The notes under the pieces are model-generated. The model searched no databases. It saw only the letters and a list, made by a program, of their open reading frames with translations, and was not told where the DNA came from. A stretch of DNA of 64,000 bases from a bacterium (GTDB lineage Bacteria > Patescibacteriota > Minisyncoccia > Ryanbacterales > GWA2-47-10b): positions 5,627 to 69,626 of the forward strand of contig JAQBTR010000003.1 of assembly GCA_027624915.1 (NCBI GenBank), in the 5' to 3' direction. The first letter of the stretch is position 1, and each line of letters begins with the position of its first letter. Below, one piece after another: positions 36,113 to 64,000 of the stretch. A program made the position numbers and the translations under genes.

Positions 36113-37146
36113 GAGGCTCGTCTAATTATATATTCGGACAACCCGCAAAGGTCTTTCTTTATTTTTGATGAAAGATTACTACGGTCTAACACACGCCCTG
36201 CTTGAAGGACTAACTCATCTGCATAGTTTGAGACAACATCATATGCTCCACTTTCTTTATATATACTTTTTATGCATGATAGAGCTTTTGAATCTATTTC
36301 TTTACCGTGCACTGACAAAAGATATTTTTTATCAATGACTGAGGCACGATTTACAGCCTCAAAGAAAAGTAATGTGGGCTTACCCTCCGAGATATCCCGC
36401 CCCAAGGACTTACCTGTTTTCTTAGGTGAACCAAAAACATCAAGCATATCGTCCTGTATCTGAAATGCAATACCTGTATACATGCCGTAGACTGCGAGAG
36501 ATCGTTGGTTTTTTATAGAAGCTCCTGCAAGTATTGCACCTGCAACAAGTGGTGCAGTTACTGTATAACCCGCTGTTTTGTGCTCATACAATTCAAGAAT
36601 ATTTTTACGCTTGATATTGCGCACGTCGGTGAGCGCAATATCAATAGCTTGACCTAGACCAACCAAATAAAATGCGTCCATAAGATACTTAATCGCATCG
36701 TGTTTTTGTTTTGGAGAAGATGTTACCTCATTTAACAACTCGTGCATCAAAACAAGAGCATAGTCACCCGCAACAATTGCCAACTCTCTACCGCGTCCTT
36801 TTACTATCTTATTGGCTCGCACATGGTATGAGGGTTGGCCACGACGCTTAGATGAGTTATCTATTAAATCGTCATGTATGAGAAGTGACGTATGAGCAAC
36901 CTCAATACCCATTCCTACCTGTAAAACATCTCGATTTGAAACCTTTTTTGGTCCTGACCTAGAACCAATATCAACAAGAAATGGCCGTAAGCGTTTACCA
37001 CCATTAAGAGATACTTTAAGCTGTCTCAAAGTCTCTGTTGTTATGCTTGAAAGCTTTGAGGATGATTTAATTTTCTTGTCTATATATAACCCAAGCTCTT
37101 TATTGAATCTATTTTGAAACTTTTTTATTTTTTGTTCTATGTTCAT
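36109..37146 (-). CDS. Polyprenyl diphosphate synthase (trans-isoprenyl diphosphate synthase).
   Basis: FARM motif LIHDDLIDNSSKRRG and SARM motif FQIQDDMLD. Confidence 0.85.
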   Translation of the reverse strand: MNIEQKIKKFQNRFNKELGLYIDKKIKSSSKLSSITTETLRQLKVSLNGGKRLRPFLVDIGSRSGPKKVSNRDVLQVGMGIEVAHTSLLIHDDLIDNSSKRRGQPSYHVRANKIVKGRGRELAIVAGDYALVLMHELLNEVTSSPKQKHDAIKYLMDAFYLVGLGQAIDIALTDVRNIKRKNILELYEHKTAGYTVTAPLVAGAILAGASIKNQRSLAVYGMYTGIAFQIQDDMLDVFGSPKKTGKSLGRDISEGKPTLLFFEAVNRASVIDKKYLLSVHGKEIDSKALSCIKSIYKESGAYDVVSNYADELVLQAGRVLDRSNLSSKIKKDLCGLSEYIIRRAS

Positions 37147-38412: not shown

Positions 38413-47685
<9,273 letters not shown>

Positions 47686-51695: not shown

Positions 51696-53483
51696 CTACT
51701 GTAGAAAGTACTCTACCAAAAGAAGTGGTGCGAAAATAATATTTGCTATGATTTGAACGGCACGAGAGTGTTGTTCTTCTGGTGGTGGCTCACCTTCATA
51801 CGTTGGTTCCGGCGGGAAGTCTCCCCCATCATTCTCGCGACGTTCTTCGTATTCCTGTCGATACTCATCGTACTGTTCAGGTTGGAAGTTGTCGCCAACT
51901 GGTGGCAGCTGACCATCAAAATGAGGTTCATTAGAACGAAACCCTCCTCTCAAATCTTCAAACTGTTTTAAACCATCCAGTCTCTTTAAGTCTTCTGGTC
52001 TAAATCCCCGCTCCTCCAGCTTACGCAGTTCATCGGGTGTTGCTCTTCTTGGGTCCGGGAACTGACCCCCATCGAATAGCTCCCTATCGTTGTGATTAAA
52101 GTCTGATGGTGGAAAATCTCCTTTACCGGGAAAGTCACCAGATACTCCAGGAAAATCAAATCCACCATCAAATGGTACTCGGTCATCCTCTCCAGGAATA
52201 TGATCATCAAAATTTGGAATGTTACACTCTTGAGAATTTTGACGACAGTAGTCAAAACACTCTTGTGGACTCGTACAGCCACCAGGGCCGCTAAATCGTC
52301 CATCTTCACGATGGCCCTCTCCAGCATCATCTCCCCTAAATCTTCGTTCTAAGTCTTGAAGTTCATGGAGTTTATCGAGTCTGCGTTCAAAATCACCATC
52401 TCCACCCATATCTGACCCAGGTCTACGGAACCTATCTCTTTCACTAAACTCACGTAACATTCGCTCGGCATTCTCTTGCGTTAAACCACCATGGGTAGAT
52501 GCAAAAGCTACACACTCTTCAAAATGATCTCGATTTTCGCAGTATTTTTTACACTCTCTTTCTTCTCGACATCCACCGGGGCCACCCTCGCTTTTCATTT
52601 TACGCTCAAGTTTTAACCCAATCTCATGGTCTCTCCTTTCCTCATTAGATAATAATCCATTTCCTTGTGCAAATTCAAAACACTCTTCTCGATGTTCTGG
52701 ATCGTCACAATAACGATGGCACTCAACCCCACGACACCCACCAGGACCACCCCTACGTGACGCATCCATAAACCGACGTGCTTGCTCCACCTCTTCTCGA
52801 GGAATTAAGTTATGCTCTTCTGCAAATGTTAGACACCCATCTTCATGCCCTGATTGTTCACAATACTCACGACACTCTTTTCCTATACAACCACCTGGTC
52901 CTTTTTGAGCTCTTAACCCATTAAACTTCCGTGCCTCTACAATCTCTTCACGTGTCATAAAACCCTCTCGCTCTGCAAAAGTAATACACTCATCAAAATG
53001 TGCCTGATCTTCACAGTATGCCCGACACTCATCCTCTCCGTGACATCCACCGGGCCCCACAAAGTCTTCTCTTGATTGATGACCTCTTCGTACTCTATTA
53101 CGAATATGATCTACTTCTTCTTTTGTTATAAAACCCTGCTCAAGACCGTGATTAATACACTCATCAACATGAGATGGCCTTTCACAATATGCCTTACACT
53201 CACTTTCACTGGAACATCCACCCGGACCATTTAATCTTCGTGTGCGTTCTTCTATATGTCCTCGGACACGCTTGGCATCTTCACTATTAAGAAGTCCATT
53301 AGCTTCGGCAAAATCAATACAAATAAGTCTATTATCAGGATTGTCACAGTAGCGCTTACAGTCTTCTCTAGATTCACAGCTACCAAGTTCTGCAACCGGG
53401 AATGAAATATCTTGTGCATTAGCCACAGCTCCAAACGAAAATAAGCCTACGCTAGCAAATATATACAGTAGAAACGTACGCAT
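51696..53483 (-). CDS. Secreted cysteine-rich tandem-repeat protein of unknown function.
   Basis: Signal peptide MRTFLLYIFASVGLFSFGAVANA. About 10 tandem ~45-aa modules carry GPGGC-x3-5-EC-x2-YC-x5-6-H-x2-EC (4 Cys and 1 His per module). The protein is highly Glu/Arg-rich. The C-terminal third is acidic, low-complexity and DFP/GDF-rich, and it ends in a hydrophobic tail. Confidence 0.5.
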   Translation of the reverse strand: MRTFLLYIFASVGLFSFGAVANAQDISFPVAELGSCESREDCKRYCDNPDNRLICIDFAEANGLLNSEDAKRVRGHIEERTRRLNGPGGCSSESECKAYCERPSHVDECINHGLEQGFITKEEVDHIRNRVRRGHQSREDFVGPGGCHGEDECRAYCEDQAHFDECITFAEREGFMTREEIVEARKFNGLRAQKGPGGCIGKECREYCEQSGHEDGCLTFAEEHNLIPREEVEQARRFMDASRRGGPGGCRGVECHRYCDDPEHREECFEFAQGNGLLSNEERRDHEIGLKLERKMKSEGGPGGCREERECKKYCENRDHFEECVAFASTHGGLTQENAERMLREFSERDRFRRPGSDMGGDGDFERRLDKLHELQDLERRFRGDDAGEGHREDGRFSGPGGCTSPQECFDYCRQNSQECNIPNFDDHIPGEDDRVPFDGGFDFPGVSGDFPGKGDFPPSDFNHNDRELFDGGQFPDPRRATPDELRKLEERGFRPEDLKRLDGLKQFEDLRGGFRSNEPHFDGQLPPVGDNFQPEQYDEYRQEYEERRENDGGDFPPEPTYEGEPPPEEQHSRAVQIIANIIFAPLLLVEYFLQ

Positions 53484-53902: not shown

Positions 53903-54913
53903 TCACTTTTGCGGTGAGCTTGTGAATAGGCCCCTAGCTATTTCCCAATTCTCTGGCCTATCGTGCTTTGTCTTTAACCAATACCAGTACTCAACACCCC
54001 ATAGATAGAACTCATCAAATCCTGTTTTTGAGGCGTATTCTATAATCCCCTCAAACTTTTCTGGGCTAAAGGACATCTCTTGTTCACTTTGCGTCATCTG
54101 TGGGATTGGCTTGGGGCCCCAACTCTCTCCTTGAAGCTCTATCACAACCATTGGTCGCTCACCCGCAACCCACTGTGTAAGTTTATGCTTTGCCCTAAAA
54201 AAGCCTGGTGGAAGTGGGTATGTCACGTGTCCGAACGGTTCTTTGTAGATGATTCGGTACATGGTTGTACCGAAAACATCGCTACGCCTTGCTGCCCTAA
54301 ACCAAAGTGACAATTCTCCAGAATCTGTAACCAAAACCGGATGACTTGAATCAAGGATCTTTACCAAGGCGATTTCCTCCTCCAGAAACTCAACGTTAAG
54401 TGGCGGACATATACCGAAAGGTAAGAATGGCTCATTCTCTACCTGCCAATACAGAAGATTTGGTGAATCCTTATATCTCTCAACGGTGGCTGTAATATAT
54501 TTTTTAATAAGATCTTCTTGTTCGCTACGTGGTAATGATTTTGCCCACTCTGGTTCGTGACACTCTGGCCAACGAGGAACCTTTCTGCCAACTGCTAATA
54601 TCACCTCTGCACCCTCTTCTTCTGCGCGCTCAACCTGGTAGTCAAGATCACGAAAGTCATATGTGCCACGCCGAGCCTCAACCAGGCGCCAGTATACCGG
54701 CAGACGAATCTGTTTTACCCCGAGATCTGTGAGCATAGCTTCATACCCCTCCTTCCACGGAATACCAAAATCCTCCATTGAACTTTGAGAATACGTAACC
54801 CCCCACACTCTTGGCTCTAAGATTGGCGTGAGCCCTGCCATATATACCAAAACTAGGATTGATAAAAAAATCAAAAGTACAAAAAATCTAACAATTTGAA
54901 ATCGTTTTTTCAT
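53903..54913 (-). CDS. TIM-barrel glycoside hydrolase-like protein (GH5/GH42-type NEP motif) with an N-terminal transmembrane helix.
   Basis: LLYWQVENEP matches a catalytic acid/base box. Family assignment is uncertain. Confidence 0.45.
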   Translation of the reverse strand: MKKRFQIVRFFVLLIFLSILVLVYMAGLTPILEPRVWGVTYSQSSMEDFGIPWKEGYEAMLTDLGVKQIRLPVYWRLVEARRGTYDFRDLDYQVERAEEEGAEVILAVGRKVPRWPECHEPEWAKSLPRSEQEDLIKKYITATVERYKDSPNLLYWQVENEPFLPFGICPPLNVEFLEEEIALVKILDSSHPVLVTDSGELSLWFRAARRSDVFGTTMYRIIYKEPFGHVTYPLPPGFFRAKHKLTQWVAGERPMVVIELQGESWGPKPIPQMTQSEQEMSFSPEKFEGIIEYASKTGFDEFYLWGVEYWYWLKTKHDRPENWEIARGLFTSSPQK

Positions 54914-55806
54914 GAAAGAAACAATAAGTAGAGAGCAAAACTCATTGATAATGCACCCAAAACTTTTACACTAAGCGCATGCACAGAGAAATCTTCTTTT
55001 AGGACGCGTGGTGCAAAAAATGCCAAGAAAATAGAAATGATAAATACGAAGAAATATTCAAATGCAGCTAATGCATGAACAACCGAGACCACCCCACGTG
55101 ATAATGCAAAACTCACAAGAAACGCCCCTATAGCACCAATTGCCTTATTTACTAATAGTAGTGCGCTACCATGTGCCGATGGCAGGTTGGAAGACCTTAT
55201 TGTATGCCGACAACTCGGTATCAAGAATATTAATAGAGCCCCAAGAAACGACCCCATGCGCGACCAGAACAATCCATCAATAAACCCAGCGTTTAAAAAG
55301 ACATACTTTAACAAAACCAAACTTATACTTAGTAGCGTTGCCGCTGCCAGAACAATCCAAACTAGGGAATGATAAAAAACGTTTTGATGCTGTCTCTCCC
55401 ACACCAAGAAGAACCCTCCAAGAATTAGAAAAAATACTGCCTGCAAGCCAAATCTTCCTATATCCTCTCCGAGAGTATATAGAGCCAAAATAAGGGTAAA
55501 AAATGGTGCGATACTAACAAATAGTGGCACTACACGGGATGAGTCATAGTGACGAAGTCCGAGATACAAAAAATAAAGATGGCCCAAAAAGAAAATACCA
55601 GATATAAGTCCTACAAGTATTATTCGTGGCTCTACATCGAAGCTCAAAAAGGGCAAAAATAACAGAACAAGACCTGATAGTAAACCACCGTAGAATGTGT
55701 ACATAATGGGCTGTTTTATTGGGCCCGCTAGTATAACCTTATCAATTATCTTTGCACTTCCTGCAAAAAAGTAAGCAACAAGAGCAGCAACTATCCAAGT
55801 TTCCAT
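54910..55806 (-). CDS. EamA/DMT-family transporter (10 transmembrane helices).
   Basis: Duplicated 5-helix hydrophobic topology. 298 aa. Confidence 0.5.
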   Translation of the reverse strand: METWIVAALVAYFFAGSAKIIDKVILAGPIKQPIMYTFYGGLLSGLVLLFLPFLSFDVEPRIILVGLISGIFFLGHLYFLYLGLRHYDSSRVVPLFVSIAPFFTLILALYTLGEDIGRFGLQAVFFLILGGFFLVWERQHQNVFYHSLVWIVLAAATLLSISLVLLKYVFLNAGFIDGLFWSRMGSFLGALLIFLIPSCRHTIRSSNLPSAHGSALLLVNKAIGAIGAFLVSFALSRGVVSVVHALAAFEYFFVFIISIFLAFFAPRVLKEDFSVHALSVKVLGALSMSFALYLLFLS

Positions 55807-55929: not shown

Positions 55930-56127
55930 GTGGAAGAATGCATTGATTGTCAGGCGTGGGCCCTGCCTTGTCCTCATAATGATGTATGCGAAGACTGCTG
56001 TCTCATATGCCGCAAAGTAGATGACAAGGGCTGTAATCGCGAACGCGACACCTTCTTTCGAGACGATCCCTTTGCGGAACTAGAGGCGTACATAGATGCA
56101 TCCCAAACCTGTAGTGAGAGAAGGTGA
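55930..56127 (+). CDS. Small Cys-rich protein.
   Basis: CIDCQAWALPCPHNDVCEDCCLICRK has 8 Cys within 30 aa. Confidence 0.3.
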   Translation: MEECIDCQAWALPCPHNDVCEDCCLICRKVDDKGCNRERDTFFRDDPFAELEAYIDASQTCSERR

Positions 56128-56347
56128 TCCAATGCCAAACCTAACAGAAGTACTCAAGGTGGATCGAGAACGCGGCCTCGTCGAGCTCTCGATCCCCGGC
56201 ACAGGAATTTTTGCTCTCACCCTACGACGTGGTCGTCCCTTCATCATACGTGAGCAGTACTACACATCAGACGCTCGTCTCTCCAGTGAAGAGCGCCGAG
56301 CAATGTACGCACGTGCCGGCGCAATACTCCGGCCAAAAAAGAAATAA
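56096..56347 (+). CDS. Hypothetical protein.
   Basis: ORF followed by a strong terminator. Confidence 0.3.
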   Translation: MHPKPVVREGDPMPNLTEVLKVDRERGLVELSIPGTGIFALTLRRGRPFIIREQYYTSDARLSSEERRAMYARAGAILRPKKK

Positions 56348-56357
56348 AAAGCAAAAA

Positions 56358-56390
56358 GGGGCCTCCTAGGAGGCCCCTGTAGTATTTTTT
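56358..56390 (+). terminator. Rho-independent terminator.
   Basis: GGGGCCTCC-ta-GGAGGCCCC followed by a T-run. Confidence 0.7.
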
Positions 56391-56672: not shown

Positions 56673-57875
56673 TTAAAAAAGAGATTCTCGAATCATGGTG
56701 AGCGCTCTTTCAACCCAAAACTTCCCCGCTTGAGGACCACCTCCACATGTCCCATCTGATTCACCTGGTGGCTTTATCCATAAAAAGGCATCAATACCTA
56801 CAGCTCCTGTCTCTCTTGTTGGGAGCGCACCAATTGCTACACCAGGAGTGTTGCACCATTCGGTATCTTCTATCGCCCGGCCATTTCTACTTGTATCAAT
56901 AATGAAGTGCTTACCCCCCAAGAGGCCTGAAACTGTCTGTCCGTAAGAAATCTCATCATTTAGTTGCTGATAGTTTGCAACATTGGTAAAAAAGCCGTCA
57001 GCTCTGTCTATTCCGCTTCTTTTTAAAGCTGAAGCCATAATAGCTGGTGAGCGCCAATTACCATGACCGCCATCCAAATAGACTCGAGCATTCTTGTTGT
57101 GATCTTTTATATACTCAACTGCTGATTTAAGTTCGCTTGCTCGAACCGCCTGATCCTCGGAAGAAAGGTTTGGAAATAAGCCAATGGCGTCCGGTTCAAG
57201 TACAATCCAAACAGAATTATCGCCAATTCCTTCAGAGATACGCTGTATCCAATCTGAGTACTTTACTGTTTTACCAACACCACTCCACCACGTTAGTGTA
57301 GTGTGGTCTGGTATATTATAAAGAACCAATATGGGGATTTTTTTTGCATCAGCCGCTTGAGTGACCATAGTCTTCGCACGTTCTGAAACAAAATTAAGAT
57401 CATCTCCAATAATCCACACCCCTTGAGGAATACAAGCTATACGTTCAAGGAGTTTTGCATCAGCATCATTACCCTCTTGTTTGAGACGGTCAAGTTCACG
57501 TGCTGCCTGAGATTTTGGATCACGAAAAAAACTTGACGACTCTAAAAAGCTAGCACAATCAAATGCTATTTTTTTAGGTGGAGGTAGTGAAGGCGGGACA
57601 ATCACTGAAGGTGGTAATACTGTTACCGGAGGGAGTGTGTCTATAATAATTTCATCCCCATTATCAGTTATTACTTCATTGAGCTCGTTATTTTCTTTTT
57701 CTGATAAATCATCGCCCGGTAAGATATGAATTTCAACGTCAGGACCGTGGAGGTCGACACTAACCTTTTCAAAACTCAAAACCAAAAACAAGCCTAAGAG
57801 CACAGAAAAAAATAGACCCGTCCAAAGGATGACGGTGCTTAACAAAACAGATTTTTTTGTCTTTTTTTGCGCCAT
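56673..57875 (-). CDS. Glycoside hydrolase family 6-like protein, membrane-anchored.
   Basis: N-terminal transmembrane helix and a Pro-rich linker. FLWIKPPGESDGTCGGGPQAGKFW resembles the GH6 C-terminal signature (WVKPGGE.DGTSD...PQAG.WF). Confidence 0.55.
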   Translation of the reverse strand: MAQKKTKKSVLLSTVILWTGLFFSVLLGLFLVLSFEKVSVDLHGPDVEIHILPGDDLSEKENNELNEVITDNGDEIIIDTLPPVTVLPPSVIVPPSLPPPKKIAFDCASFLESSSFFRDPKSQAARELDRLKQEGNDADAKLLERIACIPQGVWIIGDDLNFVSERAKTMVTQAADAKKIPILVLYNIPDHTTLTWWSGVGKTVKYSDWIQRISEGIGDNSVWIVLEPDAIGLFPNLSSEDQAVRASELKSAVEYIKDHNKNARVYLDGGHGNWRSPAIMASALKRSGIDRADGFFTNVANYQQLNDEISYGQTVSGLLGGKHFIIDTSRNGRAIEDTEWCNTPGVAIGALPTRETGAVGIDAFLWIKPPGESDGTCGGGPQAGKFWVERALTMIRESLF

Positions 57876-57884
57876 TATCTAAGT

Positions 57885-58883
57885 CTACTCAATCTCTCTA
57901 ATTAAATAGTTATCAAATTCGACATCCATAAAATCTGTACGGATGCCAGCATGTCCCTCTTTTAGGAATGGAGCACCTGCTTGGGAACCATCGTCTATGG
58001 CTTCTGCCACAAGCTTCCAATCACCCTTGTTATATTCATCTAAGTATAACTGAATGAGAACCGTATTATCTTCTTGGGTCTGGACAACACTTTTAAGCCC
58101 AAGCCACTGTTTATGGGGCAAAAGATTTGGGTGCGTATCTCTATTATATTCACCCTCAAAATATGGTTGATAATCTAATGTATAATATTCCCCTCCTATC
58201 TTCTTTTTAATGACCGCTGCTCCATCCACACGAATTCCAGCATAGTAGAGATTGTCCCCATCTTGGTATCTATTAAACGAAAGAATTCCATTAGACTCTG
58301 CTCGATTAGTACTTTGAGATAGGTTGTCTTTTGTAATCGAAAAATCAAAAGACTGAATAAAGGTCTTCCAGGTATCATGGGTTACAAGTCTAAATAAATT
58401 TTGCGGGTAACGACCTTCATCGGTATCATCTGGATCATTACTTAGATATAACTTACGCCAAGATGAATTGTCTTCAAGGGGGCCCTGAATGGTTCTAAAG
58501 ACTCCCCGTTCAATGACTAAAAAAGCACCTGAGTTCAACCACCAATAAGGACTTGAACTGTTTTTAGGCAAACCTGCCTCCTGTAAAACACCGTCCACAT
58601 TAGCCGAAAAAGAGAAAAATCCAGACACTTCTTTTTGAAAGACTTCTTGAGAAGATGTACTAGCTACTAGATTATTTACTGGAGTAGGAAGAACGACCTT
58701 AGAATGATTTCTGTTCATCTTAGAGAAAACTCTTTCCGCAATACTTTGTTCTTCTTTCTCATTTAAACTTAAAATAGAATTGGGTTGGCTCTTAAAAAAT
58801 ATGTATTTCCAGGAAACAAAACCGTTCCACACCAGAAGTAGGGGCAAGAGAAAAACGAATATAATTTGTACGTTTTTTTTCAC
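57885..58883 (-). CDS. Membrane-anchored hypothetical protein, possibly a ConA-like/LamG beta-sandwich.
   Basis: N-terminal transmembrane helix. The C-terminal GIRTDFMDVEFDNY pattern is a weak pointer. Confidence 0.3.
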   Translation of the reverse strand: MKKNVQIIFVFLLPLLLVWNGFVSWKYIFFKSQPNSILSLNEKEEQSIAERVFSKMNRNHSKVVLPTPVNNLVASTSSQEVFQKEVSGFFSFSANVDGVLQEAGLPKNSSSPYWWLNSGAFLVIERGVFRTIQGPLEDNSSWRKLYLSNDPDDTDEGRYPQNLFRLVTHDTWKTFIQSFDFSITKDNLSQSTNRAESNGILSFNRYQDGDNLYYAGIRVDGAAVIKKKIGGEYYTLDYQPYFEGEYNRDTHPNLLPHKQWLGLKSVVQTQEDNTVLIQLYLDEYNKGDWKLVAEAIDDGSQAGAPFLKEGHAGIRTDFMDVEFDNYLIREIE

Positions 58884-58905
58884 CTTTAGAAAGATATATT
58901 AATAA

Positions 58906-60528
58906 TTAATTTTGAGAACCCACAGCTATTATAGACAAGTCTTTTATAATAACCTCGCTCTTGCCAGGAACAGGGTCCCAGACCTTGAACCCAATACCTC
59001 CTCGACTCAATTTTGGATGCACATACTCAGTTGACACCAACATTTTCCCATCAATAAAACACTGAGTTTTATCGCCCGTTGTTATCATTTCAAAAACTGC
59101 AGCGTCCCAAGAGAACACATCTTTAAGCTTAAGATCAACGATCTCATATTTATGACCGTCAACATATTCATCCAAATGAATATACTCCCCCGTGACACTA
59201 CATGACAGATAGTTATTACTATCTGTATATCGTCCCGCTAAAGAAAAGGATGTCCCCCTGATCCAGTCAACAGTTACAGTAAGATGATAGTCACTTAAAT
59301 TTCTTGCGCCATCAAGAAATACTGCGGCCCCTGTTTTATCTTCATCTGCGCTTAAGGTCAACTCAGAGTCCTTTATGCTAAAAGTGCTCCACGCCCTAAC
59401 CCAATCTTCTTCCGAAAGAAGATCATCCATATAAATTGGTAACTGATGAGATTGGCCAGAGTTTAATATGTTTAATAAATCATTATCGTTCCAATTAGGG
59501 TCAACCCCTATACGTTTGATCAAAAAAGTATTATCGCCAAAGAAGTTCTGTGTAAATCCAGCACTTGGGAACGTCTGAAAGAATGCCATAGAGTAATTAT
59601 CACCAACAGAAGAAAGTAAAACCCGTCGAGCATCTACATAGTTTGTATAACCTTGAGCAAAATCTCCATAAGGAAACGCGAAGACGTCAGAATTAATACC
59701 CAAAACACGATTTAATTGTTCTTTTGTTTTTGCAAGGTCCTTAGCTATACGTTCTTTATATTCCTCATTGGTTTCAACTCGTCCCAAAGATTCTATCCAA
59801 AGCTTATTAGAATAATAATGACCTTCTTCCTTATCCTTAGAAGTCGGAATAAAAATATGTCCATCATAAGCATGAGCTTCTACTTCCCATCGACCGCTAT
59901 GGATCATTAAGCGTAATTCGTCTGAATTCAAATAGTAACCATTGATATTGTTCTCGGCCAATGACCGTCCTGCAATAATAAAAGTGACGGCCTGATAATC
60001 AAGAGCTCGAAGTATGGGATCCACAGGATAATAACTAGATTTTGCCCCATCATCAAACGTCAACAAAAAGGATTTTTTTGGGAGTTTTTGATCACCCCTC
60101 ATGAAAGCAGTGAAATCCTCTAAATTAATAGTTTTCCACCCCTCCTTCTTTAGACGGAACATTTGTGATTCAAACATATCCCTTGTCACATTTTTTCCAT
60201 CTGGCTCATCAAGAATTCCGTGATACAAAAGAACTGGTATAGATTCGGCAAACCCCGAGGCAGAGGCAGACACAACCTCTGAATTCTTCTGAAAAATAGT
60301 ACCAATACTACCAAGAAGGCCTCTTTCACTGTAGCCACGCTTTGTCAGATAAAAATAATAAGAAACATCGCCCTTAAAGCTCAATAGCTCTCTCTTGACC
60401 ATCTGTTCTGGATATCCTCCCAAAAGAGAGAAGTAAGACACACCTAAGAAGAGAGCCATAAAAACAAAACTCATTTTTAGAACTTTGGTTTTTGAAAAAT
60501 CGAGATAAGTCATTATCTTGTCCCCCAT
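58906..60528 (-). CDS. Polysaccharide deacetylase (NodB homology) with an N-terminal transmembrane helix and a C-terminal beta-sandwich.
   Basis: LLTFDDGAKSSYYPVDPIL (TFDDG motif) and the downstream His motif region. Confidence 0.65.
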   Translation of the reverse strand: MGDKIMTYLDFSKTKVLKMSFVFMALFLGVSYFSLLGGYPEQMVKRELLSFKGDVSYYFYLTKRGYSERGLLGSIGTIFQKNSEVVSASASGFAESIPVLLYHGILDEPDGKNVTRDMFESQMFRLKKEGWKTINLEDFTAFMRGDQKLPKKSFLLTFDDGAKSSYYPVDPILRALDYQAVTFIIAGRSLAENNINGYYLNSDELRLMIHSGRWEVEAHAYDGHIFIPTSKDKEEGHYYSNKLWIESLGRVETNEEYKERIAKDLAKTKEQLNRVLGINSDVFAFPYGDFAQGYTNYVDARRVLLSSVGDNYSMAFFQTFPSAGFTQNFFGDNTFLIKRIGVDPNWNDNDLLNILNSGQSHQLPIYMDDLLSEEDWVRAWSTFSIKDSELTLSADEDKTGAAVFLDGARNLSDYHLTVTVDWIRGTSFSLAGRYTDSNNYLSCSVTGEYIHLDEYVDGHKYEIVDLKLKDVFSWDAAVFEMITTGDKTQCFIDGKMLVSTEYVHPKLSRGGIGFKVWDPVPGKSEVIIKDLSIIAVGSQN

Positions 60529-61835
60529 CTAGAGTCTCTAATAGTAAACATCGCCCAGGGCAACTGCCACATCAACATAACCGTATAAAACCAAAAAGTC
60601 AGGACAGACAAAAGCCACGCGCGCGGTCCAACTTGCGTGCGATAATAGATACCATGAAGTAACAACATGAGAAACAACCCGGTTAAATAAGCAAGTGGGA
60701 AAATACCTGTCAAATAGGGGTGCCATAACATAGCCCTTATAAAAACAATTGGTGACGTTATAGCTAGAAAGACATAAGCATAGTAAGAAATAGCAGCAAA
60801 AATATTTTTACGCCACATAAAAGCACTAGCTATGATAGTCTCTCTAACCCAGGACTTTTTCCATCTTTGCTGCTGTTTAATATATTTACCTATCGTGTGC
60901 GGCACAACGGTGTACGCCTTAGCTTCAGGTGAATAAACAGCTTCATATTTTTGAATAATAAAATTAGTCAAACTCCGATCATCACCAAAAGTACATTTAC
61001 TCCCCAAGAATGTTTGATTCAACCAAGGATCAAGAAACTCAAGCAGATATGACCGACGATATGCAGAACAACACCCAGGACAACAAGTAACATTCCCAAA
61101 AACAGATTCTGCCGCCTTATATATACTAAAAGCAATATAATACCGTGTGGCCTGCATTTGCGTCAAAAGATTCGTCTCTCTATTAAATACATCTGTATGA
61201 CCCGAAACTGCTCCAATTCTTGGATTTGAGAAGTACTTGACCAAATGCTTAACACAATCTGGTTCAATAAAGCTGTCTGAATCGATAAATATAACAATAT
61301 CATGCTTTGCTCTTTTTACGCCCTCAGCCATCCCATCTCTCTTCCCTCGATTTATCTTCCAATTTACTACTGTCATGGGAATGGTGCCCTTTACCTCTTT
61401 TTGAATTTTTAACATTTCTCCATGTGTGTTATCGGTAGATCCATCATTTATGGCAATAATTTCGATTCTGTCTTTCGGATAATTTACATGTACAAAGCGT
61501 CTTACCGTCTCAGCAATATTGTCTTCTTCATTTTTTGCCGGTACAACAAAAGTGATCGATGGCTGATATGACTCATCGTGCTCAATAGATCTATGGAAAT
61601 GAGAAAGAAAAAATCTAGAAAGAATATAGATAAAAATAACCAAACTGTAGATCGTAAAAAACATTGTTCCGCCACGAAAATTGGTCGTCGAAACTTTAAA
61701 TAAAAAAATTACATAGAGAACCAAAAAAAAGACAAGCCAAAAAGCAACGTCCCTGAATAGGATGCCTTTGTTTTTGACTCTATTGATAAAAGAAAAATAA
61801 CTTTCTTTTATCTCTTGATAAGATTTATTTTTCAC
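60513..61835 (-). CDS. Family-2 processive beta-glycosyltransferase (cellulose/chitin/PNAG synthase-like).
   Basis: GT-A motifs INDGSTDNT and DSDS (DxD), Q(Q)QRW (QxxRW), and transmembrane helices at both ends. Confidence 0.75.
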   Translation of the reverse strand: MKNKSYQEIKESYFSFINRVKNKGILFRDVAFWLVFFLVLYVIFLFKVSTTNFRGGTMFFTIYSLVIFIYILSRFFLSHFHRSIEHDESYQPSITFVVPAKNEEDNIAETVRRFVHVNYPKDRIEIIAINDGSTDNTHGEMLKIQKEVKGTIPMTVVNWKINRGKRDGMAEGVKRAKHDIVIFIDSDSFIEPDCVKHLVKYFSNPRIGAVSGHTDVFNRETNLLTQMQATRYYIAFSIYKAAESVFGNVTCCPGCCSAYRRSYLLEFLDPWLNQTFLGSKCTFGDDRSLTNFIIQKYEAVYSPEAKAYTVVPHTIGKYIKQQQRWKKSWVRETIIASAFMWRKNIFAAISYYAYVFLAITSPIVFIRAMLWHPYLTGIFPLAYLTGLFLMLLLHGIYYRTQVGPRAWLLSVLTFWFYTVMLMWQLPWAMFTIRDSRWGTR

Positions 61836-61882
61836 TTTTTTAGTTACGAATTCTAATCTAGCACTCCAGTATTCTTCATCAC

Positions 61883-64000
61883 CTAGAGTGTCACATCAAA
61901 TGTGGTTGCGTCGTTAACCCACTCATAGAGTCCTGTCCAGTTGAGTCGAATTAAACCAACCGCAACACGATATGTTCCTGGGCCTGGAGCCACCCACTCA
62001 AAATCAAAGGTTCTTTCTTCTCCTATCTGAAACGTATCGCCGTTTCGTATGAGCTGAGCAACGAGAACATCAGAAAAATCGTAAACCTCCATATTGATTA
62101 CAACATGCCCTGGCTCATCACCTAGGTTGTGAACAGTCATTGAAATCATGTGTGAACCATCACCTTGTAACTCTGACGTCGTAACAACGTGTGTTGGTGC
62201 GAATAAATCAGTTAAAACCAAAGGACCACCGTTTGACCATGATGGGTCCTGATCGTCGCCACCATCCGTTGAGCCGAATTTTCCGTGGTGACCACTATTA
62301 CTCTTATCTAAGATGTCTTGACCGAATCCCTCAATAAATTGCCAGTATTTTATGAGCCCAATACGGTCGTCATCTGCTAAGACAGATCCAATATTACCCG
62401 CGATCTGAACATCAGTCCTTACAACATTCCAGACGCGCACATCATCTAGAGTTCCGTCAAATGCTTTTATAGCAAGAATTGCGGGCTCTGCGCCGATCCA
62501 CACAGGATCAAGGTTTCGATCGATAACACCTATTTTAGCTACCGAGTCAACAAGAATACCATCTTGGTAAAGATTCATGAATGAACCGTCATACGACACC
62601 GCCGCATGTGTTTGTGCGCCTGGCACAACTGTTCCACCCACAAGTAATGAAGGTACTCCATCTGTACTTAATATAAACTCAAGAGATCCTGCTGCTGTGA
62701 CACCCAATGACCACGATGTACCTGTAAGATGCTTAGAGATAAGTTTTTGATCTACACCTATGGCATCAGCAGTAAAGAGCGCCTCAATAGTAAATGAGTC
62801 TTCTTCAATATCCCATACGCCAACATCTACATAATCATCAACCCCATCAAAAATAATAGATTGACTTGAGTATACAATTGGCTCCCCCTCACAAACACCC
62901 TGACCGAGTACTGGATAAGTAAATGTTGAGGTGTGATCTCCCCATGAATTTTTAGTCCATCCAGAAGGACCCGAATTTTCGAATGAAGAATTGGCAATCA
63001 AATTAATTGAAGACTCTAATGATGACAAAGATGCACGATCAATCACCAATGAACCATCCTCCTCGATGAGATGGTATACCGTTGCTTCTAGTGCGTTTGG
63101 TGGCATTTCAAACTCAAATGAACTGAGCTGCCAATCTGCTGATGACGGCAAAGATCCAATGAGCATGTACACCGTTCCAGAATCAGTAATTACTTCGGCA
63201 ACAATCTTACTTGAAATATCAGAGATATAATAATCCTGGTAGGTATACATTGCGGAACCAACAACCGATACTGGACTGTGTCGCCACTTTGCATCTCCAC
63301 CTACATAGCTTGAAATCTCAACGTGAGCACCACGAATCGTACATGCTTCAATTTTTTCATATCCAAACTGAACTAGAGCCGCATATCCATTTTCATAATA
63401 TTCAACTCTGATTTCATGAACACCTGGTGATAGAACAATCTCGGCACTGTATGTTGTTGCTGCCTGATCATGCCACTCATTAATAATCGCAACATCGTCA
63501 ACAAACACGCGCACTCCATCATCTGCGGTAATCGTAAATCGATATGTTCCGTCTTCAAATTCATCTTGTCTAATCCACTGTGCTGAGAAGTTATCTGGCT
63601 GAATGAGTGGGTCTGGAGAGCCACCGTCACCCCAATCAAAATCAATAGATGCATCATCTCTAACTAAAATTGGTGCACCAGCTAAATCCTTATTAGTAAA
63701 GTACCTTGAACAGAAGGTCTCTCTACCAAGCACACCTGGAACTGGATGTGTAAATACAGATGTATTTGAACCCCATGAGTTTTGTATCCATCCAGAAGGA
63801 CCGGGTGTTTCAAATGAAGCGTTTAGTATCAAGTTGGTATTAGTACCAGTCTCGACAAAACGATATCCATCTACAGTTAATTCTCCAACACTGTTTACCA
63901 AGTGAAATACTGTGGCTGCAGTAACATCGGCTGGAATAACAAATAATGCTTCGTTCTTAGTCCAATCAATAGCCGCTGGTCGAGTGCCAAGCCACATATA
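61883..64000 (-). CDS. Large secreted PA14 + LamG/ConA-like domain protein. Partial: the N-terminus lies beyond the window end.
   Basis: The PA14-like segment FTNKDLAGAPI...GTYRFTITADDGVRVFVDDVAIINEW. The LamG-like segment DGVDDYVDVG...LDDVRVWN. The ORF is open to the window edge. Confidence 0.55.
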   Translation of the reverse strand, partial: YMWLGTRPAAIDWTKNEALFVIPADVTAATVFHLVNSVGELTVDGYRFVETGTNTNLILNASFETPGPSGWIQNSWGSNTSVFTHPVPGVLGRETFCSRYFTNKDLAGAPILVRDDASIDFDWGDGGSPDPLIQPDNFSAQWIRQDEFEDGTYRFTITADDGVRVFVDDVAIINEWHDQAATTYSAEIVLSPGVHEIRVEYYENGYAALVQFGYEKIEACTIRGAHVEISSYVGGDAKWRHSPVSVVGSAMYTYQDYYISDISSKIVAEVITDSGTVYMLIGSLPSSADWQLSSFEFEMPPNALEATVYHLIEEDGSLVIDRASLSSLESSINLIANSSFENSGPSGWTKNSWGDHTSTFTYPVLGQGVCEGEPIVYSSQSIIFDGVDDYVDVGVWDIEEDSFTIEALFTADAIGVDQKLISKHLTGTSWSLGVTAAGSLEFILSTDGVPSLLVGGTVVPGAQTHAAVSYDGSFMNLYQDGILVDSVAKIGVIDRNLDPVWIGAEPAILAIKAFDGTLDDVRVWNVVRTDVQIAGNIGSVLADDDRIGLIKYWQFIEGFGQDILDKSNSGHHGKFGSTDGGDDQDPSWSNGGPLVLTDLFAPTHVVTTSELQGDGSHMISMTVHNLGDEPGHVVINMEVYDFSDVLVAQLIRNGDTFQIGEERTFDFEWVAPGPGTYRVAVGLIRLNWTGLYEWVNDATTFDVTL

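What the first reader, a model, noticed from the sequence alone, without database searches (positions are those of the whole stretch)
56673..64000. Membrane-anchored polysaccharide synthesis and remodelling module: GT2 synthase, NodB deacetylase, ConA-like protein, GH6 hydrolase and a PA14/LamG protein
A processive QxxRW glycosyltransferase is followed, with a 16-nt overlap, by a polysaccharide deacetylase. That pairing is the core logic of PNAG, chitin-oligomer or chitosan-type polymer synthesis. Downstream, co-directional, are a lectin-like protein and a GH6-like hydrolase; GH6 is a cellulase family rarely seen in episymbiotic CPR. A GH5-like gene and a DMT transporter lie nearby, and a large PA14 + LamG adhesin-like gene runs off the window edge. 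Together these could build and trim a surface glycan used for host attachment.
Basis: partly seen in the sequence, partly recalled or inferred. Interest (0 to 1): 0.55.

Follow-up and report, generated by a model that had tools for sequence, protein, structure and literature searches.

The report
HAS-like surface-glycan operon in a CPR bacterium
A tiny, uncultured groundwater bacterium carries an operon that most likely makes, exports, partly de-acetylates and trims an N-acetylglucosamine-based surface sugar polymer, using a synthase that most resembles hyaluronan synthases; its three-gene core recurs across this bacterial class, and no paper in the searchable library describes it.

Summary
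Its reading holds only in part.

- **GT2 (60513-61835, minus strand):** a processive synthase with all catalytic motifs. Its nearest characterised relatives are class I hyaluronan synthases, then NodC. PgaC is distant.
- **CE4 (58906-60528):** a membrane-anchored ecto-enzyme like the PgaB N-terminal domain, not NodB. It carries a CBM66-like beta-sandwich at its C-terminus.
- **332-aa protein (57885-58883):** an anchored ConA-like jelly-roll. It belongs to a family with no Pfam model and no name from any source.
- **GH6 (56673-57875):** genuine GH6, but from a small subclade that has lost the canonical "RDC" aspartate.

In 52 related CPR loci the conserved core is GT2, then CE4, then the ConA-like protein (45/46 and 40/42 informative loci). 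A UDP-N-acetylhexosamine-type dehydrogenase usually sits directly upstream (37/44), and a two-component system is often nearby. The window has neither. GH6 occurs in only 1 of 37 informative loci, the closest relative. The GH5-like and DMT genes form a separate transcription unit.

Most likely this is a synthase-dependent, GlcNAc-based surface polymer system, and the window carries a dehydrogenase-less, GH6-bearing variant. The product is unproven. It could be chitin/chitosan-like or an acidic, hyaluronan-like polymer. No paper describing the cassette was found. I rate it a new variant of a known kind.

The parts
61883..64000 (-). C-terminal 704 aa of a 1584-aa surface protein (GSDH beta-propeller, PKD, PA14, LamG). 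Its stop is 47 nt upstream of the GT2 start.
   Evidence: Pfam PA14 1.8e-14 and Laminin_G_3 5.5e-21. Full gene and domains on the ENA contig. An ortholog sits upstream of the cassette in the closest relative L002, and fragments of similar proteins lie near the cassette in about 8 other loci.
60513..61835 (-). Processive GT2 synthase of 440 aa. Two N-terminal TM helices, a cytosolic GT-A domain and a C-terminal membrane region; the protein ends exactly at RWGTR.
   Evidence: Pfam and NCBIfam hits. Best PDB match is Chlorella virus hyaluronan synthase, 1.6e-38. Family-invariant motifs. Motif comparison with HasA, CvHAS, NodC and PgaC. TM scan.
58906..60528 (-). Membrane-anchored ecto de-N-acetylase of 540 aa. 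TM 13-36, long helix 41-79, PgaB-like CE4 domain 95-360, CBM66-like beta-sandwich 365-537.
   Evidence: Pfam PF01522. NCBIfam best hit is the PgaB N-terminal region. Profile against PDB: PgaB 7.5e-27. AF2 pLDDT 88. Foldseek: PgaB E 6e-20, TM 0.80; CBM66 TM 0.78. H103, D159, D160, H219 and H224 conserved.
57885..58883 (-). Membrane-anchored ConA-like jelly-roll protein of 332 aa (TM helix, disordered linker, beta-sandwich 88-330). Member of a family with no Pfam model and no name from any source.
   Evidence: No Pfam, NCBIfam or PDB sequence hit. 1386 homologs, all named hypothetical. AF2 pLDDT 85. Foldseek matches CBM66, YesU, DUF1080, GH16 and PL7/14. Lies downstream of CE4 in 40/42 loci. A natural CE4 fusion exists, P0213.
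56673..57875 (-). Membrane-anchored GH6 of 400 aa (TM 15-33, Pro-rich linker, catalytic domain about 105-400). Divergent subclade lacking the RDC aspartate. Starts 9 nt after the previous gene.
   Evidence: Pfam GH6 3e-50. Best PDB match M. tuberculosis CelA1, 2.8e-52. Motif table over 150 representatives. Junction sequence.
56357..56378 (.). Strong bidirectional intrinsic-terminator-like hairpin (9-bp stem, 7 GC pairs, T-runs on both strands). Likely 3' end of the operon.
   Evidence: Terminator scan.
53903..55806 (-). Separate two-gene unit, probably not part of the operon: a 10-TM DMT/EamA transporter (54910-55806) overlapping by 4 nt a membrane-anchored clan GH-A TIM-barrel hydrolase (53903-54913).
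   Evidence: Pfam EamA 3.3e-07; GH42, GH5 and GH10 hits are weak. PDB GH5 endoglucanases at about 1e-7. The pair recurs in L034 and L061 at different distances and orientations from the cassette.

Best explanation
The minus-strand run from the PA14/LamG giant protein through GT2, CE4 and the ConA-like protein to GH6 is one operon. It encodes a synthase-dependent, N-acetylglucosamine-based cell-surface or extracellular polysaccharide system.

**Shown**
- The GT2 is an intact processive synthase of the class I HAS / NodC / chitin-synthase clade. It has a cytosolic GT-A domain between membrane segments.
- The CE4 carries the full PgaB-type catalytic set.
- CE4, the ConA-like protein and GH6 are each predicted to be type-II anchored, with their domains outside the membrane.
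- The GT2, CE4, ConA-like order is conserved across Paceibacteria.

**Inferred**
- The synthase polymerises UDP-GlcNAc and extrudes the chain through its own membrane domain, possibly with a second donor.
- The anchored CE4 binds the emerging chain through its CBM66-like module and removes some N-acetyl groups. In PNAG/PIA systems this step makes the polymer cationic and keeps it on the cell.
- The ConA-like protein binds or processes the polymer.
- The GH6 cuts beta-1,4 bonds to release or size the polymer, as BcsZ, PslG, the PgaB C-terminal domain or AlgL do in other synthase-dependent systems.

**Product**
This organism's locus lacks the dehydrogenase that precedes the synthase in most relatives, and it has a beta-1,4-type hydrolase. 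The product here is therefore most simply a chitin-like polymer converted to a chitosan-like one. In dehydrogenase-bearing relatives it is probably an acidic, hyaluronan-like heteropolymer containing an N-acetylhexosaminuronic acid.
For: **Catalytic motifs and family assignments:**

**Topology:** a single N-terminal hydrophobic segment follows a K/R-rich tail in CE4, the ConA-like protein and GH6. AF2 models show the N-terminal helices.

**Operon structure:** gaps of 47, -16 (or -1), 22 and 9 nt, with a strong terminator after GH6.

**Synteny over 52 CPR loci:**

| Feature | Informative loci |
|---|---|
| CE4 directly after GT2 | 45/46 |
| ConA-like protein downstream, same strand | 40/42 |
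| ConA-like protein present in 2 or more copies | 10 |

GT2 identity to the window protein is 60-81%. A natural CE4 + ConA-like fusion exists (P0213).

**GlcNAc-type substrate:**
- Similarity ranks Paenibacillus GT2 (275 bits), then HasA (159), NodC (about 127) and PgaC (87).
- Shared motifs are GDDR, QQxRW-KS-RE and WGTR.
- The 39%-identical Paenibacillus homolog sits in a PilZ-GT2, colinear CE4 + beta-sandwich, GH18 (chitinase family) cluster.

**Acidic variant in relatives:** a nucleotide-sugar dehydrogenase lies directly upstream of the GT2 in 37/44 loci. Its nearest HMMs are UDP-ManNAc and UDP-GlcNAc 6-dehydrogenases. The window and its 10-kb upstream flank have no homolog.

**GH6 adjacency** recurs in the closest lineage (L002/L061) and in L062.
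Against: - No biochemical data exist for any member of the family.
- The linkage type (beta-1,4, alternating 1,3/1,4, or 1,6) cannot be read from sequence.
- The CE4 is closest to deacetylases of beta-1,6 PNAG.
- The synthase's motif set is HAS-like rather than NodC-like. The dehydrogenase could sit elsewhere in this genome, so a chitin-only product here is not secure.
- GH6 is present in only 1 of 37 informative related loci, so trimming by GH6 is not part of the conserved mechanism.
- The GH6 lacks the aspartate equivalent to T. reesei Cel6A D175 (my recollection of its role). It may be weakly active or have a different substrate.
- The ConA-like protein's role is unknown.
- The PA14/LamG protein's link to the cassette is loose outside this lineage.
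Confidence: 0.6

Rival explanations
1. The synthase makes an acidic, hyaluronan-like heteropolymer in this organism too, with GlcNAc alternating with GlcA or an N-acetylhexosaminuronic acid. The dehydrogenase and the sugar-1-P nucleotidyltransferase would simply be encoded elsewhere in the genome.
For: - The GT2 shares the HAS-type motifs FGDDRxLTN, QQxRW(K/S)KS(W/F)xRE and a terminal WGTR. It is 33% identical to B. anthracis HasA and CvHAS, against 28.5% to NodC.
- The residues that contact the GlcA carboxylate and priming loop in CvHAS are K177, R341, R348 and Y299 (PMC12987647). They correspond to K165, R324, R331 and F283 here.
- The closest relative L002 (81% identical GT2) has DH, GT2, CE4, ConA-like, NTP-transferase and GH6 in one operon. 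This parallels hasB, hasA and hasC.
- The dehydrogenase is adjacent in 37/44 loci.
Against: - No dehydrogenase or NTP-transferase homolog lies in the 64-kb window or the 10 kb upstream of it.
- The dehydrogenase scores far better against UDP-ManNAc and UDP-GlcNAc dehydrogenase models (230-330 bits) than against UDP-glucose dehydrogenase models (47-196 bits). Classical hyaluronan is therefore unlikely.
- K165 and R324 are conserved in all QxxRW synthases, so they do not discriminate.
- GH6 and the Paenibacillus GH18 point to beta-1,4 GlcNAc or Glc-type bonds.
Confidence: 0.3
2. The pair is a PNAG (poly-beta-1,6-GlcNAc) system like PgaC/PgaB or IcaA/IcaB.
For: - By sequence and fold, the CE4's closest relatives are the PNAG deacetylases PgaB, BpsB and IcaB.
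- The PgaC_IcaA HMM hits the GT domain at 4e-41.
Against: - The PgaC model score is 141 against a cutoff of 422, and it covers only residues 64-347.
- Identity to E. coli PgaC is 23%. The GDDR and WGTR motifs are absent from PgaC, which has TEDIDIS and QRLRWAQGG instead.
- No small PgaD/IcaD-like gene lies between or after the genes, and there is no GH153 domain.
- The accessory hydrolase is of a beta-1,4 type (GH6).
Confidence: 0.07
3. The GH6, and perhaps the PA14/LamG protein, are not dedicated to the cell's own polymer. They would attack host or environmental beta-glucans for nutrition or host-envelope breaching, and merely share an operon with the glycan genes.
For: - GH6 is absent from 36 of 37 informative related cassettes.
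- In L064 a subclade GH6 follows a PA14/LamG gene with no cassette gene visible on that 3-kb contig, and in L063 none is seen in the sequence held.
- The best-matching structures are true cellulases.
Against: - The GH6 starts 9 nt after the ConA-like gene, with no terminator between them.
- The same adjacency occurs in L002/L061 and L062.
- The enzyme is membrane-anchored rather than secreted.
- It lacks the canonical RDC aspartate found in the canonical cellulase-type GH6 representatives examined.
Confidence: 0.25
4. The GT2 is a NodC-like oligosaccharide synthase that makes short chito-oligosaccharide signals, with the CE4 acting as NodB does.
For: - The NodC HMM is the best NCBIfam hit. It aligns end to end, 58-440 against 16-394 of 395 positions.
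- The protein has NodC-like length and architecture.
Against: - The NodC score of 181 is far below the 550 cutoff.
- NodC's GEDR and WLSR motifs differ from the GDDR and WGTR found here.
- The CE4 is anchored outside the membrane and is PgaB-like, unlike cytoplasmic NodB. NodB gave no tblastn hit to any cassette CE4.
- There is no NodA-like acyltransferase.
- Extracellular CBM-like partners make better sense for a polymer.
Confidence: 0.05

Closest known systems
Class I hyaluronan synthases (streptococcal and Bacillus HasA with hasB/hasC; Chlorella virus CvHAS)
   Same: - A single membrane-embedded GT2 that both polymerises and exports.
- Shared motifs: K in GKR, DSD, FGDDRxLTN, QQxRW-KS-x-RE, and WGTR at or near the C-terminus.
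- CvHAS is the best PDB match at 1.6e-38.
- In most relatives a nucleotide-sugar dehydrogenase directly precedes the synthase. In L002 an NTP-transferase follows, as in hasB and hasC.
   Different: - Only about 33% identical.
- The window has no dehydrogenase.
- The relatives' dehydrogenase resembles UDP-HexNAc dehydrogenases, not UDP-glucose dehydrogenase.
- has operons (from my own knowledge, and the pXO1 hasA-galU-ugd locus) have no extracellular CE4, ConA-like protein or GH6.
- The product is unknown.
PNAG/PIA systems (PgaABCD, IcaADBC)
   Same: A GT2 synthase works with an extracytoplasmic CE4 that partially de-N-acetylates the exported GlcNAc polymer. The CE4 here is closest to the PgaB N-terminal domain, BpsB and IcaB, and has the H-x4-H metal motif.
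   Different: - The synthase is only 23% identical to PgaC and lacks its features.
- There is no PgaD/IcaD, PgaA porin or GH153 domain.
- The CE4 carries a CBM66-like module instead.
- The hydrolase is a GH6.
Paenibacillus cellulositrophicus megaplasmid cluster (PilZ-GT2, CE4 + beta-sandwich, GH18); uncharacterised
   Same: - It holds the closest non-CPR homolog of the GT2 (39% identity, 275 bits).
- A colinear CE4 + beta-sandwich protein follows it (E 4e-18 over 485 aa).
- A dedicated glycoside hydrolase comes next.
   Different: - The GT2 has an N-terminal PilZ (c-di-GMP) domain.
- The CE4 has SFEDG in place of TFDDG.
- The hydrolase is GH18, not GH6.
- No ConA-like stand-alone protein is annotated there.
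- The cluster is itself uncharacterised.
Rhizobial NodC/NodB
   Same: The GT2 and CE4 genes are adjacent. NodC is the best NCBIfam model and aligns full-length.
   Different: - The score is far below the equivalog cutoff.
- NodC has GEDR and WLSR where this protein has GDDR and WGTR.
- NodB is cytoplasmic and small, and the nod gene order is nodB then nodC.
- There is no NodA.
GH6 endoglucanases (M. tuberculosis CelA1, T. fusca Cel6A)
   Same: Same fold and family. The catalytic acid EPD229, D268-x-GH and PGESD374G are conserved.
   Different: - The Y-x-x-P-x-RDC loop is replaced by YNIPDHTT..WWS.
- The RDC aspartate and cysteine are missing from the whole subclade, about 25 clusters at 50% identity.
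- The enzyme is membrane-anchored and sits in a biosynthetic operon.

Membership tests
Processive GT2 synthases (D, DxD, D, QxxRW) | UDP-binding Asp, DxD, the catalytic Asp of the (G/E)DD/ED motif, and QxxRW | tested here: met
   D131/D135, D185-S-D187, G284-D-D-R and Q321-Q-Q-R-W325 are all invariant in a 12-sequence family alignment. Pfam Glycos_transf_2 1.3e-31.
Class I hyaluronan synthase | HAS-type sequence signature (FGDDRxLTN, QQxRW-KSxxRE, WGTR gating segment) | tested here: met
   Motif alignment with B. anthracis HasA and CvHAS. CvHAS is the best PDB hit at 1.6e-38.
Class I hyaluronan synthase | Supply of UDP-GlcA by a co-encoded UDP-glucose 6-dehydrogenase (hasB) | tested here: not met
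   No dehydrogenase homolog in the window or in L001. The relatives' adjacent dehydrogenase matches UDP-ManNAc and UDP-GlcNAc dehydrogenase models better than UDP-glucose dehydrogenase models.
Class I hyaluronan synthase | Product is alternating GlcA-beta1,3-GlcNAc-beta1,4 | not testable with these tools
   Requires biochemistry.
NodC chitooligosaccharide synthase (TIGR04242) | Score at or above the equivalog cutoff | tested here: not met
   181.4 bits against a cutoff of 550. The GEDR and WLSR motifs are not shared.
PgaC/IcaA PNAG synthase (TIGR03937) | Score at or above the equivalog cutoff, with a PgaD/IcaD partner | tested here: not met
   141.2 bits against a cutoff of 422.3, covering the GT domain only. 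Identity to E. coli PgaC is 23%. No small membrane-protein gene lies in the operon.
CE4 polysaccharide deacetylase (PF01522) | Pfam gathering score and the Asp-Asp / His-His metal and catalytic set | tested here: met
   60 bits against a cutoff of 23.1. T157-F-D-D160, H219-x4-H224 and H103 are conserved in 34 homologs. Foldseek to PgaB and AaPgaB gives TM 0.80.
PgaB (TIGR03938) | Equivalog score and a C-terminal GH153 domain | tested here: not met
   104.9 bits against a cutoff of 321.9, over the N-terminal domain only. The C-terminal domain is a CBM66-like beta-sandwich, not a TIM barrel.
GH6 | Pfam gathering score and the catalytic acid Asp in the EPD motif | tested here: met
   172.2 bits against a cutoff of 27. 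EPD229, D268xGH and PGESD374G are conserved.
GH6 | Second conserved Asp of the RDC motif (T. reesei Cel6A D175, T. fusca D79; roles recalled from memory) | tested here: not met
   The motif is replaced by PDHTT in the window protein. It is absent from all of roughly 25 nearest representatives and present in canonical GH6.
ConA-like lectin/glucanase fold, CBM66 | Beta-jelly-roll fold; sequence membership in CBM66 or DUF1080 | tested here: inconclusive
   The fold is met: Foldseek to CBM66 gives E 1e-8 and TMt 0.66. There is no sequence-level membership. Pfam gave no hit, with only 1 of 40 members touching 3keto-disac_hyd at E 0.06. The profile against PDB found nothing.
PA14 and LamG (Laminin_G_3) domains | Pfam gathering scores | tested here: met
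   54.2 bits against 24, and 75.7 bits against 27.6.
GH5 | Clear family-level assignment for the 336-aa protein | tested here: inconclusive
   Hits are weak and overlapping: GH42 38 bits, GH5 30 bits and GH10 23 bits. PDB GH5 endoglucanases match at about 3e-7. The protein belongs to clan GH-A, but the family is unresolved.

The most novel reading that the evidence does not exclude
Paceibacteria (CPR) use a hyaluronan-synthase-like enzyme fed by a UDP-N-acetylhexosamine 6-dehydrogenase to make a previously unknown glycosaminoglycan-like polymer. It would consist of GlcNAc alternating with an N-acetylhexosaminuronic acid and be partly de-N-acetylated outside the cell. This polymer would form the extracellular material seen where these cells attach to their hosts. 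The Pfam-less ConA-like family would be a new class of polysaccharide-active protein specific for the polymer, either a jelly-roll lyase/hydrolase or a retention lectin. The RDC-less GH6 subclade would be a GH6 re-tooled for a non-cellulose substrate.
Probability: 0.2. Interest if true: 0.8.

Novelty: new variant of a known kind. Interest (0 to 1): 0.6.

Why it matters
How CPR/Patescibacteria build their surface and hold on to host cells is largely unknown. Their genomes are small, so a cassette kept at 60-81% synthase identity across many families is likely to matter to them.

A HAS-like synthase with an extracellular deacetylase and an uncharacterised lectin-like partner gives a concrete candidate for a major surface or matrix polymer. 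It can be tested by heterologous expression. Extracellular material at Paceibacteria attachment sites has been seen by electron microscopy (PMC10936435), but any link to this cassette is untested.

The work also flags two unexplored protein groups. One is the ConA-like family, with 1386 database hits at E 0.001 or better and no annotation. The other is a GH6 subclade without the RDC aspartate.

It suggests that bacterial chitin/hyaluronan-type synthase systems reach beyond the few known cases, including a PilZ-regulated Paenibacillus version paired with GH18.

Tried and rejected
- **Homology between the CE4 C-terminal domain and the 332-aa protein.** hhalign gave only 9% probability. They share a fold, but common ancestry is not shown.
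- **The ~780-aa CE4 variants as CE4 + ConA-like fusions.** BLASTP shows they carry a duplicated CBM66-like domain instead. A genuine fusion does exist in P0213.
- **Inter-domain transfer to \"Woesearchaeota\".** One of those contigs (L052) carries a bacterial sigma-70 gene and L013 a ribosomal L1p gene, so mis-binning is the likelier explanation.
- **Sequence-level family for the ConA-like protein.** Pfam, NCBIfam and a PDB profile search gave nothing.
- **Metagenome scan for GH6 context.** The patterns chosen were pan-GH6, so 76 of 80 loci were canonical RDC-type GH6 and uninformative.
- **Taxonomy of the GH6 subclade.** Only one named member was found, from Candidatus Ryanbacteria.
- **Literature searches.** No paper combined CPR, Parcubacteria or Patescibacteria with chitin synthase, hyaluronan synthase or polysaccharide deacetylase in a relevant way. 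The bacterial chitin-synthase paper PMC5122149 concerns proteobacterial division-1 CHS acquired from eukaryotes, a different family.
- **Tandem DNA repeats in the Cys-rich gene.** None were found.
- **GC composition.** It shows no island signature around the locus.

Full report
**Observation.** The minus strand of 56673-64000 carries five tightly packed ORFs.

| Coordinates | Product | Key evidence |
|---|---|---|
| 61883 to window end | C-terminal 704 aa of a 1584-aa GSDH/PKD/PA14/LamG protein | PA14 1.8e-14; Laminin_G_3 5.5e-21; full gene on the ENA contig |
| 60513-61835 | 440-aa GT2 | Glycos_transf_2 1.3e-31; Chitin_synth_2 5.6e-24 |
| 58906-60528 | 540-aa CE4 | Polysacc_deac_1 2.8e-16 |
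| 57885-58883 | 332-aa ORF | no Pfam or NCBIfam hit |
| 56673-57875 | 400-aa GH6 | Glyco_hydro_6 3e-50 |

The gaps between successive genes are 47, -16, 22 and 9 nt. The GT2 stop and CE4 start read ...AGATGGGGGACAAGATAATGACT. The second gives a TAATG overlap. A strong bidirectional terminator at 56357-56378 follows GH6. Beyond it lie two small plus-strand ORFs. Then comes a separate minus-strand pair, a DMT/EamA transporter (54910-55806) overlapping a clan GH-A hydrolase (53903-54913) by 4 nt.

**Origin.** The exact GT2 protein occurs on a groundwater metagenome scaffold (ENA ERZ23495043). Its closest relatives are labelled Patescibacteria, Paceibacterota, Kaiserbacteria, Adlerbacteria, Harrisonbacteria and Minisyncoccia. 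The rest of the window holds ordinary bacterial genes: MurA, a Mur ligase, PriA, def and fmt. GC composition shows no island signature.

**The synthase.**
- All processive-GT2 motifs are invariant across the family: NDGSTD, DSD, GDDR and QQQRW. The unusual CCPGCC stretch is also invariant, and every member ends exactly at RWGTR.
- The best solved structure is Chlorella virus hyaluronan synthase (1.6e-38), followed by Xenopus HAS1. No chitin synthase, cellulose synthase or PgaC chain reached E 0.001.
- NCBIfam ranks NodC first (181 bits, full length, cutoff 550) and PgaC/IcaA second (141 bits, GT domain only, cutoff 422). Neither equivalog is met.
- Against annotated plasmids the order is a Paenibacillus GT2 (39% identity, 275 bits), B. 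anthracis pXO1 HasA (31%, 159 bits), NodC (about 29%, about 127 bits), then PgaC/HmsR (27%, 87 bits).
- A motif alignment groups the CPR enzyme with the HASs:

| Enzyme | Catalytic-Asp motif | After QxxRW | C-terminal motif |
|---|---|---|---|
| CPR (window) | FGDDRSLTN | QQQRWKKSWVRE | RWGTR |
| B. anthracis HasA | FGDDRCLTN | QQLRWNKSFFRE | GWGTR |
| CvHAS | YGDDRRLTN | QQTRWSKSWCRE | AWGTR |
| NodC | FGEDRHLT | QQLRWARSTFRD | DWLSR |
| PgaC | TEDIDIS | QRLRWAQGG | none |

- In CvHAS, K177 and R341 contact the GlcA carboxylate, and R348 and Y299 act on the priming loop (PMC12987647). Their equivalents here are K165, R324, R331 and F283. The first two are common to all QxxRW synthases and do not discriminate.
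- The enzyme is therefore a member of the HAS/NodC/chitin-synthase clade, and HAS is its nearest characterised neighbour. The product cannot be read from sequence.

**The deacetylase.**
- The AF2 model (pLDDT 88) shows a TM helix at 13-36, a long helix, a CE4 domain at 95-360 and a beta-sandwich at 365-537.
- Sequence profile and fold both place the CE4 domain with the PNAG deacetylases: E. coli and Aggregatibacter PgaB N-terminal domains, BpsB and IcaB (7.5e-27; Foldseek 6e-20, TM 0.80).
- TFDD (157-160), H219-x4-H224 and H103 are conserved in 34 homologs.
- The C-terminal domain matches CBM66 (TM 0.78). There is no GH153 domain.
- It is a PgaB-like ecto-enzyme with a lectin module, not a NodB.

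**The 332-aa protein.**
- It has 1386 homologs at E 0.001 or better, all unnamed, and none has a Pfam domain.
- Profile searches of Pfam and PDB find nothing.
- AF2 (pLDDT 85) gives a TM helix, a disordered linker and a beta-jelly roll at 88-330.
- Foldseek's best matches are CBM66 (1e-8), YesU, DUF1080 proteins (3-keto-glycoside eliminases), GH16 glucanases and PL7/PL14/PL28 lyases, all with modest TM scores. The ConA-like call is right at fold level.
- The domain is better conserved than the CE4, with median identity 48% against 34%.
- Its invariant residues are rich in Arg, Lys, Tyr, Trp and Asp: R165, R205, Y213, Y214, R218, D220, K226-228, Y233, R315, D317 and D320. This fits a specific polymer-binding or catalytic site, but I cannot tell which.
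- Tandem two-domain versions exist.
- One natural fusion to a CE4 exists, P0213.

**The GH6.** Family membership is secure (172 bits; M. tuberculosis CelA1 2.8e-52). I aligned the 150 best of 3178 representatives. The roughly 25 nearest (35-52% identity) form a subclade that keeps the catalytic acid EPD, DxGH and PGESDG. It replaces the canonical Y-x-x-P-x-RDC-G-x-x-S-x-GG loop with YNIPDHTT..WWS-like sequences that have an invariant Trp and no conserved Asp. From memory, that Asp (T. reesei Cel6A D175) tunes the catalytic acid, and mutating it lowers activity strongly. Losing it across a whole clade suggests altered chemistry or substrate. One subclade member is from Candidatus Ryanbacteria.

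**Comparative genomics changes the picture.** A GTDB scan returned 52 CPR loci. The tblastn mapping gives:

| Feature | Loci |
|---|---|
| CE4 directly after GT2 | 45/46 informative (44 with the C-terminal sandwich) |
| ConA-like gene downstream, same strand | 40/42 (10 with two or more copies) |
| Nucleotide-sugar dehydrogenase directly upstream of GT2, same strand | 37/44 (ORF gaps of 3-19 nt in the three loci read) |
| Orthologous OmpR-type regulator + histidine kinase flanking the cassette | about 27/52 |
| GH6 | 1/37 (the closest relative) |

- The dehydrogenase fits TIGR03026 at about 400 bits. Its nearest equivalog models are archaeal UDP-ManNAc dehydrogenase (320-330 bits), TviB UDP-GlcNAc 6-dehydrogenase (234-254 bits) and WecC. 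UDP-glucose dehydrogenase models score only 47-196 bits.
- The closest relative, L002, has giant PA14 protein, DH, GT2, CE4, ConA-like protein, a 242-aa sugar-1-P nucleotidyltransferase and GH6 in one row. This parallels hasB, hasA and hasC, with extracellular modifiers added.
- The window and its 10-kb upstream flank have no homolog of the dehydrogenase, the nucleotidyltransferase or the two-component system. The window therefore carries a reduced variant.
- GH6 adjacency to the ConA-like gene recurs only in L002/L061 and L062. In L064 a subclade GH6 follows a PA14/LamG gene.
- The GH-A + DMT pair lies within 10 kb of the cassette in only L034 and L061, at different positions.

**An outside analogue.** The best non-CPR homolog lies on a Paenibacillus cellulositrophicus megaplasmid. 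There a GT2 with an N-terminal PilZ domain is followed by a colinear CE4 + beta-sandwich protein (E 4e-18 over 485 residues, but SFEDG in place of TFDDG). A GH18 comes next. GH18 is the chitinase family, which supports a GlcNAc beta-1,4 polymer for that dehydrogenase-less system. It also shows the same synthase, deacetylase and hydrolase logic with a different hydrolase.

**Mechanism.**
- Shown:
  - The catalytic sets are intact.
  - CE4, the ConA-like protein, GH6 and the GH-A protein each have one N-terminal hydrophobic segment after a K/R-rich tail, which predicts ectodomains.
  - The genes are tightly coupled, and their order is conserved.
- Inferred:
  - The synthase polymerises and exports a GlcNAc-containing chain.
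  - The anchored CE4 partly de-N-acetylates it.
  - The ConA-like protein binds or processes it.
  - In this lineage the GH6 trims beta-1,4 bonds.
- Product:
  - With no local dehydrogenase and a beta-1,4-type hydrolase, the simplest product here is chitin-like, converted to chitosan-like.
  - In most relatives the dehydrogenase suggests an acidic, hyaluronan-like heteropolymer containing an N-acetylhexosaminuronic acid.
  - I give about 0.6 to the general model. The main rival, that this organism also makes the acidic polymer with the dehydrogenase encoded elsewhere, gets about 0.3.
  - PNAG and Nod-like oligosaccharides are unlikely.
- A role in host attachment is plausible but untested. Extracellular material has been seen at the attachment sites of Paceibacteria on methanogens (PMC10936435).

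**Novelty.** Automated pipelines already label these GT2s "hyaluronan synthase" or "chitin synthase". Full-text searches found no paper describing such a synthase or this cassette in CPR. The one paper on bacterial chitin synthases concerns proteobacterial genes acquired from eukaryotes. The system follows the known logic of synthase-dependent exopolysaccharides. Its combination is new:
- a HAS-like synthase;
- a PgaB-like CE4 with a CBM66-like module;
- a ConA-like family with no annotation;
- optionally a UDP-HexNAc-type dehydrogenase, a two-component system and an RDC-less GH6.

I rate it a new variant of a known kind, with interest 0.6.

Noticed in passing
L002:8685-9983, and the equivalent position in 37 of 44 related loci; absent from the window: A nucleotide-sugar dehydrogenase sits immediately upstream of the GT2 in most relatives. 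Its nearest models are UDP-ManNAc and UDP-GlcNAc 6-dehydrogenases. The window and L001 lack it, and also lack the 242-aa sugar-1-P nucleotidyltransferase found between the ConA-like gene and GH6 in L002 and L062.
   Followed up: yes
L018:8104-9844; L004:8062-9796; L037:4448-5122, and about 24 other loci: An orthologous OmpR-type response regulator (55-71% identity) and a histidine kinase flank the cassette in about 27 of 52 loci. This suggests dedicated regulation. No such pair lies next to the window's cassette.
   Followed up: partly
L141 (Paenibacillus cellulositrophicus plasmid NZ_CP045296.1, 264669-269475): A Firmicute cluster holds a PilZ-domain GT2 (39% identical to the window GT2), then a colinear CE4 + beta-sandwich protein, then a GH18. 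It looks like a c-di-GMP-controlled chitin-like EPS system, and I did not look for any literature on it.
   Followed up: partly
window 38413-47646 (-): A 3077-aa ORF with no Pfam hit at E 1e-4 or better. It may be a giant surface protein of the kind common in CPR genomes.
   Followed up: no
window 51696-53483 (-): A 595-aa protein with a signal-like N-terminus and a C-terminal hydrophobic anchor. It contains about 8 degenerate repeats of a four-Cys unit (GPGGC..EC..YC....H..EC..FA). The only Pfam hit is sub-threshold (Nodulin_late, E 0.005), and the DNA shows no tandem repeat. An 87-aa ORF follows it.
   Followed up: partly
window 55930-56347 (+): Two small overlapping plus-strand ORFs (65 aa, Cys-rich; 83 aa) lie between the GH6 operon and the DMT gene. 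A strong bidirectional terminator at 56357-56378 closes them. Both are called as genes on the ENA contig.
   Followed up: no
window 60513-61835 and 57885-58883: The NCBI protein records for the GT2 (383 aa) and the ConA-like protein (277 aa) are shorter than the ORFs (440 and 332 aa). For the GT2, homologs conserve residues 29-57, including TM1 (F36, Y41 and K47 invariant), so that deposited start looks too far downstream. For the ConA-like protein, the N-terminal hydrophobic anchor seen in homologs and in the AF2 model would be lost with the shorter start.
   Followed up: partly
L013, L046, L052 (records labelled Candidatus Woesearchaeota archaeon): Three cassette-bearing contigs (GT2 about 71% identical to the window's) are deposited as DPANN archaea. 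L052 encodes a bacterial sigma-70 factor and L013 a ribosomal L1p protein. Mis-binning is more likely than inter-domain transfer.
   Followed up: partly
L145:5529-12768 (GCA_030646265.1): Another cassette variant reads GtrA-like protein, a 679-aa double-GT2 fusion (a second GT2 domain fused to the HAS-like one), a 767-aa CE4 with a duplicated CBM66-like domain, a PMT_2 GT-C enzyme, then the ConA-like protein. In the window's own lineage a GT2 (515 aa) and a PMT_2 gene lie just beyond the window edge (L001:2006-5160).
   Followed up: no
CE4 family (alignment A3): 14 of 34 CE4 homologs give a weak Pfam S_100 / EF-hand match (best E 2.4e-5). The window protein does not. This could be a calcium-binding loop or a spurious hit.
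   Followed up: no
window 34305-37146 (-): Three adjacent genes encode a polyprenyl synthetase, a UbiA-family prenyltransferase and a lipocalin-like-domain protein. A 415-aa ORF without Pfam hits lies next to them. The group could be a lipid-carrier or isoprenoid module.
   Followed up: no
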